The notes below the pieces were generated by a model, which worked only from the letters and a program-made list of their open reading frames with translations, was not told the origin of the DNA and made no database searches. A program made the position numbers and the translations under genes. A DNA stretch of 64,000 nucleotides. It comes from the human T2T-CHM13v2.0 reference genome, Homo sapiens. The stretch lies in NCBI RefSeq assembly GCF_009914755.1, contig NC_060939.1. One strand, written 5' to 3'. Shown piece by piece: positions 32,413 through 39,648 of this stretch. Position 1 is the stretch's first letter; every line of letters starts with the position of its first letter.

Positions 32413-35400
32413 TTTTTTTTAAAGGTTTAAAACATTTATCACTAAAGATACTAGAATGTTCTTTGAAAACCTATTAAGACATTTAACTATTCTTTTATGC
32501 TATTCTGATCAAAAGAAAGAATAAAAGTTTAGGAAAGGGAAAAATGCACATTTCTTAAAAAAGTTTATTTCTAGCCCTGAAAGAACAAAATTATTGAACA
32601 AAGTCATAAAATACAGCAGTTAATGTCAATGTATAACAATTAAATAATTGAATGGGATTAAATTAAAAATAAAAGACATTATAAAATTTGAAGACAACAG
32701 AAAAGACAAACTATAATTTTACTTAATTCCATTTCTATCACAACAAGAAAAAAAAGCCAATGCGTTCCAACCAAAGATGCTGAATTCCAAACATAATTGT
32801 TTCTCTTAATAAAGAATAGAAGTGTGCTTGACAGAATTATCATCCATTTCTTTCTGCCTCTGTCTTGGCAGCATTCTAGAGAAGTGAATGGGAAAGACTT
32901 CCATTCTTTCAAGGCCAGGCCAGTGTTTGCTTCTTCTTTCTAACTCCAACCTCGTCTACCACAGCATCTTTGCCAGAGTGTTCAATCAGTGTGTTGACTG
33001 AGAAAAAAGAATGTGTGTATATATTTTTTCTTATATACACACACTATCAAAAAACTGATTTCACCAGTTTCAATACCTACTGTGGGAGCAGCAGAGACAG
33101 GAAGACAATCTGCTTCTTGTATTACTATGAAGTTCCACTATAAAAAACCCCAAATGAGTATTAATCTGGATTTTAGCTATAATCTATAATATTTTGACAC
33201 TGACATTTCACTAGATGTGGATCTCAGTATATTTAAAAAGATTTAGACTCAAAAATGGATGCAAATTCTTTAAGCATCTATTTTGTTTTTTTCTAATTTT
33301 AGCTACTACCTGATCAGATCTAAAATTATTCTGGCTAGAATACAGTATATACAAACGTATTTAAGTGAGTCCTATAAAGAAATACTCATAGGTAGTTTAA
33401 AATTTCTTGTTAAAGGCACAGGCTCATTTACAGTTGGTGGTTACTAGACTCTAAGCAGCTTAACATTTATATGTTAAAGGGAAGAGAATTAGTACTATGT
33501 GCCAGGCACTCGACACATGAAGACAGAGTTGTATTAGCCTCGGTGTCTTACGCTTCACAATTACTCATTTACTATTCTAGGTAGGATAAAATGTTCCATG
33601 TTTCATAGTTTCCCAGTTTTAACTGTCCCTAAAAGCAGCAGAAGAAAAAAGAAAAAGTCTAAAATATAATAAATAAGTACTATAGTAACACTGTCCTAAT
33701 AACACAAGAGGACTATTAAAGTAACTTTTAGATTTAAATGGGAATTTTCATTCTAAAGTGATGACAAAAAGGGTAAATATAAAAGGCAATTATTTAAAAA
33801 ACATGAGGCCAGGTGTAGTGGCTCGTGCCTGTAATTGTAGCACTTTGGGAGGCCAAGGTGGGCAGATTGCCTGAGCTCAGGAGTTGGAGACAAGCCTGGG
33901 CAACATGGTGAGACTCTGTCTCTACTAAAAATACAAAAAATTAGCTGGGTGTGGTGGCACGCACCTGTGGTCTCAGCTACTCAGGAGGCTGAGGCATGAG
34001 AATTGCTTGAACCCAGGAAGCGGAGGTTGCAGTGAGCTGAGATCATGCCACTGTGCTCCAGCCTAAGTGACAGAGTGAGACTCTGTATCAAAAAAAAAAA
34101 AAAATAAAAATAAAAAATAAAAAACATGAATCTTGATTCAGATATAATTTTTCTTTCAACAAGTTCTCAATGTTTTAATTTAAAATTAATAAATCACAAT
34201 TCTGTATTGCTTTTAAGATTTTGTTTAAAAATGACACATCTCAAAATTAACCAAACTATATTTCTGCTAGAGGTTAGTTTATCCATGTAACTTAAGAATA
34301 AACCACAGTGTAGCTCCCTTAACCAAAGAGCCAGGTTTTAATGACTGAAGTCAGCTGCCAGCAATGGACATGCAGGTAACTATCGAAGAAGTTGTAGCTA
34401 CAAATCCCAAACTGCTTCTATCAATGGAAAAGCCCTTTGTTGAGTCACAAGCCTGAAGTGAGGCCTTGGCACATAGTCAGTGAGAATGGTCTTTGACTTA
34501 GAAGGGAAGTGCCTCTGAGTGCATGAGGATCACAGTCTTCTCATCTCGTTGGTTTTCTATTTCATTGGTAGCATCTTCTTTATCATAATCCATCCGTTTA
34601 CAAAGAATGTTAAAATTTGGAACTCAGGTGGCACTGCAGCTTTCTGACAGAAATAAACCAGTTTCTGTAATTCAGTAATAGCTGTAGAAGGCCAATATAT
34701 TCCAGAGAAAAATGAAATCAAGAATTATATTGAAAACAGAGACCATTAAGTGCTCTAAATATGTTTCATTAATTATTTTACTCATTTTTCTGAAAATCTT
34801 GCCTTATCAATAAAAAACAGTCACTTCTCTCCTTATAATTGTATCTTATCATAGATATAGTGGGAATAAAATAATGGAAATAAAACCCTGCTAGTTTCCC
34901 CAATGTATACTACAACAGCAAAATTATTTTTTTATTCATGATTTATACTACTGCAGGATGGCAAGCAGGGGGGAAGTTAATGGGGGAAGGGGATGGTGGG
35001 AACAAAATGCCAGAACCAAACCAAATACTTGAACAACCTATTCCAAAGCAAAACAATGAATAAAGGAGAAGGAGAGGAGATGAAAGAAGAGAAGAGAAAG
35101 GGAGGGGAGGGGAGAAGGGAGGGCACTCAAATAATTAATGCTACAGGTCTCAGATCTTTCAGAATCTTTAAAAGAAACAAATTATTGCTCTCAACACGCA
35201 CATTTCATTTTCCTTTCTTGTTTTTTTACATTAATAGTCTCTACCTATTTGAAAACAAAACAAAAGTAACTCAACATCTCAAATGATCTATAAATTCATC
35301 AAGAAATACTCTGTCACTCAAGTTCTCATAGATAATACCACACTGATGATGACCTGGAGCAATGCCGCCGCCTCCAAGTCTCTACAGTTGATTTCCTATC

Positions 35401-38252: not shown

Positions 38253-39648
38253 CTGGTACCAAAACAGAGATATAGACCAATGGAACAGAACAGAGCCCTC
38301 AGAAATAATACCACACATCTATAACCATCTGATCTTTGACAAACCTGACAAAAACAAGAAATGAGGAAAGGATTCCCGATTTAATAAATGGTGCTGGGAA
38401 AACTGGCTAGCCATATGTAGAAAGCTGAAACTGGACCCCTTCCTTACACCTTATACAAAAATTAATTCAAGATGGATTAAAGACTTACATGTTAGACCTA
38501 AAACCATAAAAACCCTAGAAGAAAACCTAGGCAATACCATTCAGGACATAGGCATGGGCAAGGGCTGCATGTCTAAAACACCAAAAGCAATGGCAACAAA
38601 AGCCAAAATTGACAAATGGGATCTAATTAAACTAAAGAGCTTCTGCACAGCAAAAGAAACTACCATCAGAGTGAACAGGCAACATACAGAATGAGAAAAA
38701 TTTTTGCAATCTACTCATCTGACAAAGGGCTAATACCCAGAATCTATAATGAACTCAAACAAATTTACAAGAAAAAAACAACCCCATCAAAAAGTGGGTG
38801 AAGGACATGAACAGACACTTCTCAAAAGAAGACATTTATGCAGCCAAAAGACACATGAAAAAATGCTCATCATCACTGGCCATCAGAGAAATGCAAATCA
38901 AAACCGCAATGAGATACCATCTCACACCAGTTAGAATGGTGATCATTAAAAAGTCAGGAAACAACAAGTACTAGAGAGGATGTGGAGAAATAGGAACACT
39001 TTTACACTGTTGGTGGGACTGTAAACTAGTTCAACCATTGTGGAAGTCAGTGTGGCGATTCCTCAGGGATCTAGAACTAGAAATACCATTTGACCCAGCC
39101 ATCCCATTGCTGGGTATGTACCCAAAGGATTATAAATCATGCTGCTATAAAGACACATGCACACGTATGTTTATTGCGGCACTATTCACAGTAGCAAAGA
39201 CTTGGAACTAACCCAAATGTCCAACAATGATAAACTGGATTAAGAAAATGTGGCACATATACACCATGGAATACTATGCAGCCATAAAAAATGATGAGTT
39301 CATGTCCCTTGCAGGGACATGGATGAAGCTGGAAACCATCATTCTCAGCAAACTATCGAAAGGACAAAAAAACCAAACACCACATGTTCTCACTCATAGG
39401 TGGGAACTGAACAATGAGAACACATGGACCCAGGAAGGGGAACATCACACACTGGGGCCTGTTGTGGGGTGGGGGGAGGGGGGAGGGATAGCATTAGGAG
39501 ATATGCCTAATGTTAAATGATGAGTTAATGGGTGGAGCACACCAACATGGCACATGTATACACATGTAACAAACCTGCACGTTGTGCACATGTACCCTAA
39601 AACTTAAAGTATAATAAAAAATAAAAACATACAACCAAACAAAAAAAA
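38253..39648 (+). mobile_element. 5'-truncated L1PA (about L1PA4/5) 3' end
   Basis: ORF2 C-terminus ([14 protein letters not shown]...), G-rich 3'UTR, aaacttaaagtataataaaaa and A-rich tail. Confidence 0.95.

What the first reader, a model, noticed from the sequence alone, without database searches (positions are those of the whole stretch)
32413..39648. Double-tailed PAK2-mRNA/L1 fusion without TSD: possible two-RNA retrotransposition bridge
Seen: T8 at the left end, PAK2 cDNA on the minus strand, a direct head-to-head junction (gaggcgc|ctggtacc) to a plus-strand L1PA, and an A-tail at the right end. Left flank tatactattcta and right flank gaatgctggaaa do not match, and neither element shows its own TSD at the junction. 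The old L1 on the left does not visibly resume on the right. Inference: two different RNAs were primed from opposite DNA ends and joined at their 5' ends, like twin priming with two templates, sealing a deletion or rearrangement. The alternative is two independent insertions followed by a deletion.
Basis: partly seen in the sequence, partly recalled or inferred. Interest (0 to 1): 0.7.

Follow-up and report, generated by a model that had tools for sequence, protein, structure and literature searches.

The report
PAK2 retrocopy fused head-to-head to L1
A spliced copy of the PAK2 messenger RNA and a truncated L1 element are joined 5' end to 5' end, with their poly-A tails facing outwards, and together they link a piece of DNA copied from chromosome 2 to unrelated chromosome 15 DNA; this most likely formed in one L1-driven repair-like event, a kind already known from cancer genomes and cell culture.

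Summary
The order is: left flank, one orphan A (32412), T8 (32413-32420), a spliced, near full-length PAK2 retrocopy on the minus strand (32421-38252), a 5'-truncated L1 on the plus strand (38253-39615), an A-rich tail (to 39648), right flank. No target-site duplication exists anywhere.

New facts:
- The left flank is the right end of a ~26-kb duplicon copied from chr2:165.43-165.456 Mb. The chr2 copy is an empty site. Homology stops at TATTCT|GACAGC, an L1-endonuclease-like site, exactly at the PAK2 tail. The next 520 bases of chr2 occur nowhere else in the genome.
- The right flank (39649-47600) occurs only in the two chr15 copies of this locus.
- Three clocks agree at about 2% per lineage: PAK2 copy ~2.0%, L1 ~2.3%, duplicon ~2.1%.

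Best reading (0.5): two DNA ends were each extended by L1 reverse transcriptase on different RNAs and then ligated, with loss of the DNA between them. This is a two-template retro-bridge, already described in tumours and cell culture.

Sequential insertion plus insertion-mediated deletion cannot be excluded from one genome. It is a new germline example of a known kind. Moderate interest.

The parts
6172..32411 (+). Duplicon copied from chr2:165430169-165456373 (about 26 kb). Its right end is the left flank of the finding. An Alu at 31910-32208 is absent from chr2.
   Evidence: Matches to chr2 at 92-95%. Homology ends at 32411.
32412..32412 (.). Orphan base 'a' between the chr2-derived TATTCT and T8. 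chr2 has G here.
32413..32420 (-). Poly-A tail of the PAK2 retrocopy, seen as T8 on the plus strand.
   Evidence: The parent gene reads AAACCTTTTAA|TGGTG and the copy reads AAACCTTT+A8.
32421..38183 (-). PAK2 processed pseudogene, exons 2-15 with the whole 3' UTR, including the UTR's own Alu at 33765-34132. It has 525 codons, one 12-base deletion and one 1-base insertion.
38184..38252 (-). 69-base 5' leader joined exactly at the exon-2 splice acceptor. It is presumed to be the 3' part of PAK2 exon 1, but was not located on chr3.
   Evidence: One search shows the acceptor boundary. Searches found no match outside chr15.
38253..39615 (+). 5'-truncated L1 (L1PA-like), covering the C-terminal third of ORF2 and the 3' UTR.
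   Evidence: (94-95% to many genomic copies), (ORF2p residues 1132-1209).
39616..39648 (+). A-rich tail of the L1, ending in A8.
39649..47600 (+). Right flank. The two stretches tested (39649-40800 and 43600-47600) are found only in the two chr15 copies; 40801-43599 had no focused search. It holds an ancient CDC42BPA-like exon relic at 40085-40181.

Best explanation
This is a retrotransposon bridge made in one L1-driven event in a hominoid ancestor, roughly 15-25 million years ago.

Proposed steps:
1. The plus-strand 3' end at ...TATTCT, inside a chr2q24-derived duplicon, primed reverse transcription of a polyadenylated PAK2 mRNA almost to its 5' end.
2. A second DNA end, the minus-strand 3' end at ...CAGCATTC of unrelated chr15 sequence, primed reverse transcription of an L1 RNA for about 1.4 kb.
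3. The two cDNA ends were ligated without microhomology on the L1 side.
4. The DNA between the two primed ends was lost: the rest of the chr2 duplicon and whatever lay beyond it.

Shown:
- the anatomy;
- the non-adjacent flanks;
- the endonuclease-like site on the left;
- the absence of TSDs;
- ages that cannot be told apart.

Inferred:
- that the two reverse transcriptions belonged to one event;
- that the lost DNA lay in cis.

One consequence: the annotated transcript NR_027053.2 starts in the right flank (40775) and reads through the antisense L1 into the PAK2 copy.
For: (1) The two elements are 5'-to-5' with tails outward, and there is no TSD at any of the four ends.

(2) The chr2 paralogue is an empty site and homology ends at 32411, right at the tail. 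The break on chr2 is TTCT|GA. Only 87 of 4390 positions (2.0%) of that chr2 locus fit YYYY|RR. This points to target-primed reverse transcription on chr2-derived DNA rather than a random breakpoint.

(3) The chr2 continuation is absent from the window. Its first 520 bases occur nowhere else in the genome among the 40 of 8029 candidates scored. Right-flank queries hit only the two chr15 copies over their full length (2 of 40 scored).

(4) The ages are indistinguishable.
- PAK2 copy versus parent: 55/1530 (3.6%) in exons and 130/3567 (3.6%) in the last exon.
- PAK2 copy-lineage share: 29 nonsynonymous differences in 525 codons and 9 of 728 polarised UTR sites. Together these give about 2.0%.
- L1: 32 private substitutions in 1368 bases, with a star estimate of 2.3% against 12 relatives.
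- chr2 versus chr15 flank: 112/2720 = 4.1% pairwise, or about 2.1% per lineage.

(5) PAK2 keeps all of exons 2-15 plus 69 bases spliced upstream of exon 2. Its inner end therefore lies within the first exon, as expected of a finished cDNA. A random later breakpoint would fall there in at most about 5% of cases (inference).

(6) The mechanism is documented.
- A bridge is described of two 5'-truncated L1s in inverted orientation, joined at their 5' breakpoints, each with a poly(dA) tail (10.1101/2024.08.27.596794, passages).
- Two-template twin priming is proposed for antisense chimeras in the human germline record (PMC13174262, passages).
Against: - Nothing in a single genome shows that the two reverse transcriptions were simultaneous. 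The age estimates have standard errors of 0.2-0.4%, several million years, so an L1 up to about 10 My older or younger than PAK2 is allowed.
- The 69-base leader could not be found on chr3. Its identity as PAK2 exon 1 and its distance from the transcription start therefore rest on the exact splice-acceptor boundary and on recall.
- The pre-insertion sequence of the right-hand priming site is unknown, so an endonuclease site there cannot be checked.
- The orphan 'a' at 32412 is unexplained. It could be a G-to-A change or a mutated tail base.
- The region is a rearrangement-prone mosaic of duplicons, where later deletions and junctions are common.
- Frequencies of two-template bridges come from tumours and an L1 over-expression system, not the germline.
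Confidence: 0.5

Rival explanations
1. L1 first, then a PAK2 retrocopy insertion-mediated deletion. An L1, possibly longer, was already in the unique chr15 block. PAK2 mRNA was then reverse transcribed from the TTCT|GA nick in the chr2-derived DNA. The finished cDNA end was joined to a break inside that L1, deleting everything between.
For: This gives the same final sequence. It also explains the natural-looking PAK2 5' end, the arbitrary L1 truncation point, the missing TSDs and the lost chr2 continuation. Insertion-mediated deletions without a TSD but with a poly-A tract are well documented (PMC7058536, passages). The L1 point estimate (2.3%) is slightly above that of PAK2 (~2.0%).
Against: It requires that the far breakpoint fell in an L1 of the right orientation that was itself very young at the time. 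The difference between L1 and PAK2 is 0.4 +/- 0.5%. Such young L1 DNA is only a few percent of all L1 DNA (recalled copy numbers, not computed here).
Confidence: 0.17
2. PAK2 first with a normal TSD, then loss of its right-hand TSD and flank. The loss came either from an L1 insertion-mediated deletion, or from a plain deletion or duplicon-shuffling junction between two independently inserted elements. The latter is the reader's stated alternative.
For: The region is a mosaic of duplicons with many junctions. L1-mediated deletions are known. The ages allow any order.
Against: The left breakpoint would have to fall by chance within the first exon of a 5.8-kb retrocopy, leaving not one base of flank or TSD. 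The plain-deletion version also needs two contemporaneous insertions close together, followed by a third event.
Confidence: 0.18
3. The PAK2-L1 composite was already in the acceptor DNA, and the chr2 duplicon was later pasted in next to the PAK2 tail. The left junction is then a segmental-duplication breakpoint, not a priming site.
For: The composite sits exactly between two blocks of different origin. The duplicon's per-lineage divergence (2.1%) is not older than the PAK2 estimate.
Against: The duplicon edge would have to coincide to the base with the end of an 8-base tail. On chr2 it would also have to coincide with a YYYY|RR site, which only 2.0% of positions fit. The head-to-head fusion itself would still need one of the other explanations.
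Confidence: 0.07

Closest known systems
Retrotransposon bridges made of two retrotransposition events. Sources: Zumalave et al., bioRxiv 10.1101/2024.08.27.596794, passages seen; Mendez-Dorantes et al., bioRxiv PMC11702581, section 7 read.
   Same: Two reverse-transcribed pieces lie in opposite orientation, joined at their 5' ends. Each has a poly-A tail facing the flanking DNA. The flanks are not neighbours and there is no ordinary TSD. A processed pseudogene partnered with an L1 is also reported there.
   Different: Those cases are somatic (tumours) or made in cultured cells over-expressing L1, and are proven simultaneous by design or clonality. This one is an old, fixed germline structure in a pericentromeric duplicon mosaic, and simultaneity is only inferred.
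Classical twin priming (Ostertag and Kazazian 2001, recalled; described in passages).
   Same: Both DNA ends of a break prime reverse transcription, and the products are joined head to head.
   Different: Classical twin priming uses one RNA, primes the second strand internally so the inverted part has no tail, and leaves TSDs. Here there are two RNAs, two tails and no TSD.
Antisense mRNA/LINE-1 and small-RNA/LINE-1 chimeras in the human genome (Law and Burns 2026, PMC13174262, passages seen).
   Same: It is a germline catalogue in which opposite-orientation chimeras are attributed to twin priming on two templates.
   Different: Their antisense mRNA pieces did not include a first exon. PAK2 and LOC646214 do not occur in the 6 supplementary files held. 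Here the mRNA is near full length with its own tail, and the flanks come from different loci.
L1 or Alu insertion-mediated deletion. Sources: Gilbert 2002, Symer 2002 and Han 2005, recalled; Rodriguez-Martin 2020, PMC7058536, passages seen.
   Same: No TSD, a poly-A tract is present, and target DNA is lost relative to the ancestral state.
   Different: Those events have a single intervening element whose 5' end joins genomic DNA. Here the 5' end joins another retro-element's 5' end.
Template-switch chimeric retrogenes such as U6-L1 (Buzdin 2002, recalled; summarised).
   Same: Two RNAs end up in one insertion made by the L1 machinery.
   Different: Template switching gives both parts in the same orientation with one tail and a TSD. 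That is not the case here.

Membership tests
Processed pseudogene (L1-mediated retrocopy) of PAK2 | All introns removed relative to the parent gene | tested here: met
   Exons 2-15 of chr3 PAK2 are contiguous in the copy. The boundary with the upstream leader falls exactly at the exon-2 acceptor.
Processed pseudogene (L1-mediated retrocopy) of PAK2 | Poly-A tail at the mRNA 3' end that is not encoded in the parent gene | tested here: met
   The parent reads ...CCTTTTAA|TGGTG and the copy reads ...CCTTT+A8 followed by flank.
Processed pseudogene (L1-mediated retrocopy) of PAK2 | Target-site duplication flanking the insert | tested here: not met
   No shared word of 6 or more bases.
Processed pseudogene (L1-mediated retrocopy) of PAK2 | L1 endonuclease-like target (pyrimidines|purines) at the tail end | tested here: met
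   The chr2 empty site reads TTCT|GA at the break. The background is 87 of 4390 positions.
5'-truncated L1 insertion | L1 3' part (ORF2 C-terminus, 3' UTR) ending in an A-rich tail | tested here: met
   ORF2p residues 1132-1209, 94-95% to genomic L1 copies, tail at 39616-39648.
5'-truncated L1 insertion | Target-site duplication | tested here: not met
Classical twin priming | Inverted and direct parts come from the same RNA | tested here: not met
   One part is PAK2 mRNA and the other is L1.
Classical twin priming | TSDs flank the whole structure | tested here: not met
   The flanks have different origins.
Two-template retro-bridge | Two reverse-transcribed pieces in opposite orientation, joined 5' to 5', each with an outward poly-A tail | tested here: met
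Two-template retro-bridge | The bridged DNA ends were not adjacent before the event | tested here: met
   The chr2 empty site continues differently. The continuation is absent elsewhere. The right flank has no chr2 match. The original position of the right flank itself is unknown.
Two-template retro-bridge | Both pieces arrived in the same event | tested here: inconclusive
   The ages are indistinguishable: about 2.0% versus 2.3%, with standard errors of 0.3-0.4%. No other species is available.
Two-template retro-bridge | Endonuclease motif at both priming sites | not testable with these tools
   The left site fits. No empty site exists for the right flank.
Insertion-mediated deletion | A single retro-element whose 5' end joins genomic DNA, with loss of target DNA and no TSD | tested here: inconclusive
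   The loss and the missing TSD are met. The partner of each 5' end is another retro-element, which counts as 'genomic DNA' only if it was there first.
Endonuclease-independent L1 insertion (Morrish 2002 and Sen 2007, PMC1920257; abstract seen) | No poly-A tail or 3' truncation, and a target unlike the endonuclease site | tested here: not met
   Both elements have tails. The left target fits the endonuclease pattern.
Template-switch chimeric retrogene | Both parts in the same orientation with one tail | tested here: not met
   Opposite orientation and two tails.

The most novel reading that the evidence does not exclude
The PAK2-L1 bridge is not a later scar. It is the original seam that attached the 26-kb chr2q24 segment to chr15 pericentromeric DNA. 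On this reading the L1 machinery made a segmental-duplication junction in the hominoid germline. The segment's right 3' end primed PAK2 mRNA, the acceptor's end primed L1 RNA, and the nested inverted repeats at the segment's other edge (6172-8812) are the fold-back side of the same complex event, as seen after L1-induced breaks in cultured cells.
Probability: 0.12. Interest if true: 0.7.

Novelty: new member of a known kind. Interest (0 to 1): 0.4.

Why it matters
Two-template retrotransposon bridges that join distant DNA ends have been shown in tumours and in cells over-expressing L1. Fixed germline examples are hardly documented, least of all with a near full-length mRNA copy as one half.

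This locus would show that the same aberrant L1 outcome shaped a human pericentromeric duplicon mosaic some 15-25 million years ago. It removed DNA and placed a PAK2 copy downstream of a foreign promoter; the locus is an annotated transcribed pseudogene.

The locus also gives a concrete, easily tested case. The complete ape genomes should show either an all-or-none pattern or an intermediate with one element and its TSD.

Tried and rejected
- **PAK2 exon 1 on chr3.** I looked for it to place the 69-base leader. An 81-base query found only the two chr15 copies (2 of 2 candidates). A 34-base pattern with up to 3 mismatches did the same. A 2-kb stretch fetched at a position guessed from recalled gene coordinates was not a CpG island and held no match. 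The question stays open.
- **chr2 sequence around the duplicon.** I mapped the extent from window queries instead., both long queries, were swamped by Alus and did not even list the self match, so I drew no absence claims from them.
- **Source of the right flank.** CDC42BPB on chr14 was tried and gave only a 59-base, 75% match to the exon relic. CDC42BPA on chr1 matches that exon at 82% over 126 bases. No recent parent locus was found.
- **chr2:178.49 Mb PAK2 fragment.** I considered it as a DNA-level relative of this copy and rejected that. It is about 90% identical, no closer than the parent gene, and has its own inversion. I used it only as an outgroup.
- **A single chimeric transcript as the source of everything from 32413 to 40775.** Rejected, because the right flank has no match on chr3.
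- **LOC646214 in the literature.** It occurs in 22 papers. The 10 listed were mostly copy-number, expression or methylation studies by their titles and abstract openings; I opened none of them, so none was seen to discuss its structure.
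Full report
**Anatomy**

- The plus strand reads ...gccagtgctatactattct, then a (32412), then T8 (32413-32420), then aaaggtttaaaac...
- Further on it reads ...gttgcggaggcgc|ctggtaccaaaacagag... at 38252|38253.
- It continues ...cttaaagtataat, then aaaaaataaaaacatacaaccaaacaaaaaaaa (to 39648), then gaatgctggaaaagc...

The minus-strand stretch 32421-38183 is a spliced copy of PAK2.
- A genome search with 34200-38250 scored 26 of 26 candidates. 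It matched the two chr15 copies and every chr3 exon from 199502047 to the last exon, at 91-99%.
- Local alignment shows the exons abutting without introns.
- The 3' UTR, with the Alu that the gene itself carries there, follows down to 32418.
- The kinase part hits PAK2 chains first in the PDB.
- The copy ends where the gene reads AAACCTTTTAA|TGGTGTT, and from there it has only A. T8 is therefore a shortened poly-A tail at the gene's 3' end.

Upstream of exon 2 the copy has 69 more bases. They start exactly at the exon-2 splice acceptor, so they are a spliced upstream exon. I could not find them on chr3. The stretch is CpG-rich, and CpG decay in the copy is a plausible reason, but the point stays open.

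The plus-strand stretch 38253-39615 is L1.
- It matches ORF2p residues 1132-1209.
- It had 12,385 first-look candidates in the genome, with the best unrelated copies 94-95% identical.
- None of the 39 non-self matches covers the two bases before 38253, which fixes the junction.
- In the one older L1 copy I held with upstream sequence, the base before the junction differs from what is seen here. There is therefore no microhomology on the L1 side.

No word of six or more bases is shared between the left flank, the right flank and the two sides of the inner junction. Neither element, nor the pair, has a target-site duplication.

**The flanks**

The left flank is not just old repeat. Searches with 30520-31900 and 32200-32700 found, besides the two chr15 copies, one paralogue at chr2:165.45 Mb with 94-95% identity.

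The chr2 homology runs from window 6172 to 32411, corresponding to chr2:165430169-165456373. An Alu at 31910-32208 is absent from chr2. Homology stops at 32411.

chr2 reads ...CTATACTATTCT|GACAGCTTCATAGC... and carries no PAK2, so it is an empty site for the left junction.
- The next 884 chr2 bases have no match in the window.
- Their first 520 bases match nothing else in the genome among the 40 of 8029 candidates scored.
- The break TTCT|GA fits the pyrimidine|purine pattern of L1 endonuclease sites. Only 87 of 4390 positions (2.0%) of that chr2 locus fit it.

The right flank is different.
- 39649-40800 and 43600-47600 match over their full length only the two chr15 copies.
- It contains a splice-site-flanked exon relic at 40085-40181, 82% identical to an exon of the CDC42BPA gene region on chr1.
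- It therefore looks like old single-copy sequence, not a recent duplicon.

The composite thus sits exactly between a chr2-derived block and an unrelated block. A second, inverted copy of the whole arrangement lies at chr15:19.94-19.95 Mb at 99-100% identity. It adds no information on origin.

**Ages**

PAK2 copy versus parent:
- 55 substitutions in 1530 exon bases (3.6%; 2.7% without CpG transitions).
- 130 in 3567 non-Alu bases of the last exon (3.6%).
- In 525 codons there are 29 nonsynonymous and 28 synonymous differences, one 12-base deletion and one 1-base insertion.
- I took the nonsynonymous changes as the copy's own. That gives roughly 2.4% of about 1200 such sites; this site count is my estimate.
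- I polarised 728 UTR sites with an older PAK2 retro-fragment at chr2:178.49 Mb. That gave 9 changes on the copy's lineage and 15 on the gene's.
- The copy's own divergence comes to about 2.0%, with a standard error of about 0.3%.

L1:
- I aligned the copy to 12 of the 38 non-self, non-duplicate matches. These were the nine best and three lower ones, fetched.
- The copy has 32 private substitutions in 1368 bases. A consensus-free star estimate gives 2.3%.

Duplicon:
- 112 substitutions in 2720 non-Alu bases between chr2 and chr15 (4.1%). That is about 2.1% per lineage if the change is shared equally.

The three values cannot be told apart. With a recalled neutral rate of about 1.1-1.2e-9 per year they point to roughly 15-25 million years ago.

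Equally, simultaneity is not proven.

**Mechanism**

The left junction has all the marks of target-primed reverse transcription on chr2-derived DNA: an endonuclease-like nick, a tail directly at the nick, and an intact parent-type 3' end.

The rest of the chr2 duplicon is gone and the far side is foreign. The 5' end of the PAK2 cDNA was therefore not joined back to its own target.

Three routes give the observed sequence.
- (a) A second DNA end primed L1 RNA, and the two cDNAs were ligated. This is the bridge.
- (b) The finished PAK2 cDNA was joined to a break inside an L1 that was already there.
- (c) PAK2 inserted normally, and a later L1 insertion-mediated deletion, or a plain deletion, removed its 5' flank.

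Route (c) needs the breakpoint to fall by chance inside the first exon of a 5.8-kb copy, leaving no flank at all. I put that at 5% or less. By contrast, full-length ends are common for retrocopies: 144 of 235 in PMC11702581 (passage).

Route (b) needs the hit L1 to have been almost new at the time. Such elements are a few percent of L1 DNA; this rests on recalled copy numbers.

Route (a) needs a rare but documented outcome.
- Nine insertions with two RNAs were found in clones that together carried 99 L1 and 235 pseudogene insertions. Those in opposite orientation were explained by ligation of two RT-extended ends (PMC11702581; section 7 read in full; counts from a passage).
- Bridges of two inverted 5'-truncated L1s, each with a tail, joining distant DNA have been described. 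So have events pairing a pseudogene with an L1 (bioRxiv 10.1101/2024.08.27.596794, passages).

Weighing these, I put (a) at about 0.5, (b) at 0.17 and (c) at 0.18. I put 0.07 on the duplicon having been pasted next to a pre-existing composite. That last route requires a base-exact coincidence with the tail end and with a 2% site class.

**Comparison with what is known**
- Classical twin priming (one RNA, internal priming, TSDs) is not met.
- Template-switch chimeras (same orientation) are not met.
- Endonuclease-independent insertion (no tail, odd target) is not met.
- Insertion-mediated deletion (PMC7058536, passages) shares the missing TSD and the lost DNA.
- The closest match is the two-template retro-bridge.
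- Law and Burns (PMC13174262, passages) list antisense mRNA/L1 chimeras in the human genome and ascribe them to two-template twin priming. Their antisense mRNA chimeras did not include a first exon. Neither PAK2 nor LOC646214 occurs in the 6 supplementary files held.
- LOC646214 occurs in 22 papers. The 10 listed were mostly copy-number, expression or methylation studies by their titles and abstract openings, and I opened none, so no discussion of its structure was seen.
- I could not see the supplements of the two bioRxiv preprints, which may hold closer examples.

**Limits**
- Only one genome could be searched, and no repeat library was at hand, so the L1 subfamily is not named.
- The genome search scores only the best candidates. 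Absence claims rest on the short, focused queries, not on the long ones.
- Named mechanisms and papers marked 'recalled' come from memory, not from a call.

**Verdict**

This is a real and tidy structure. It is most likely a germline, fixed example of a two-template L1 bridge with loss of DNA, at the edge of a chr2q24 duplicon. It is a new member of a known kind and of moderate interest.

Noticed in passing
window 6172-8812: The left edge of the chr2q24 duplicon is a nested inverted structure. Arms 6172-6816 and 8168-8812 are 645 bases long and 99% complementary. Arms 7894-7987 and 8156-8249 are 94 bases and 99% complementary. Arms 7855-7894 and 8116-8155 are 40 bases and 90% complementary. 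Window 6172-7899 is chr2:165431904 down to 165430169 inverted, and 8156 onward is chr2:165431248 onward forward. It looks fold-back-like.
   Followed up: partly
window 40085-40181 (+): An exon-like piece with an acceptor and a donor (GYNAPCLSVHSENAADVFDVSSTEWIQTVPFNK). It is 82% identical over 126 bases to chr1:226214398-226214523, about 2.5 kb downstream of the CNH-domain exon of the CDC42BPA locus. No CNH exon was found on chr15. It may be an ancient gene relic cut off at 39649 by the L1.
   Followed up: partly
window 3477-6171: A discrete block of about 2.7 kb with 20 or more copies, at 77-90%, in pericentromeric regions of chr17, 7, 20, 14, 21, 13, 9, 2, 22 and 18. The copies share the same two ends. 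It abuts the chr2 duplicon at an A-run that belongs to the chr2 sequence. Window 3000-3486 is NBEA-like (chr13, 92%).
   Followed up: no
L028 = chr2:178487853-178490992: A separate, older PAK2 3'-UTR retro-fragment. Its two pieces lie in opposite orientation, matching window 32561-32986 forward and 34885-34574 reversed. It looks like a classical twin-priming inversion.
   Followed up: partly
window 36598-38164 (-): The PAK2 copy has no stop codon in 525 codons. It has only one in-frame 12-base deletion and one 1-base insertion, which leaves open stretches of 250 and 282 residues. There are 29 nonsynonymous and 28 synonymous differences. This is mildly fewer disabling changes than expected and was not tested for significance. 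The locus is annotated as transcribed.
   Followed up: partly
window 47625-51136: This block is 87.5% identical to chr22:30362640-30366052, inverted. The annotated U6 pseudogene at 50698-50804 lies inside it. The block borders the unique right-flank block.
   Followed up: no
window 31910-32208: An Alu is present in both chr15 copies but absent from the chr2 parent, so it inserted after the duplication.
   Followed up: partly
window 38184-38252 (-): The 69-base leader spliced onto PAK2 exon 2 has no match elsewhere in this genome. A 34-base stretch from within it, allowed 3 mismatches, found only the two chr15 copies. It is either a strongly CpG-decayed exon 1 or an upstream exon not present in this assembly.
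   Followed up: partly
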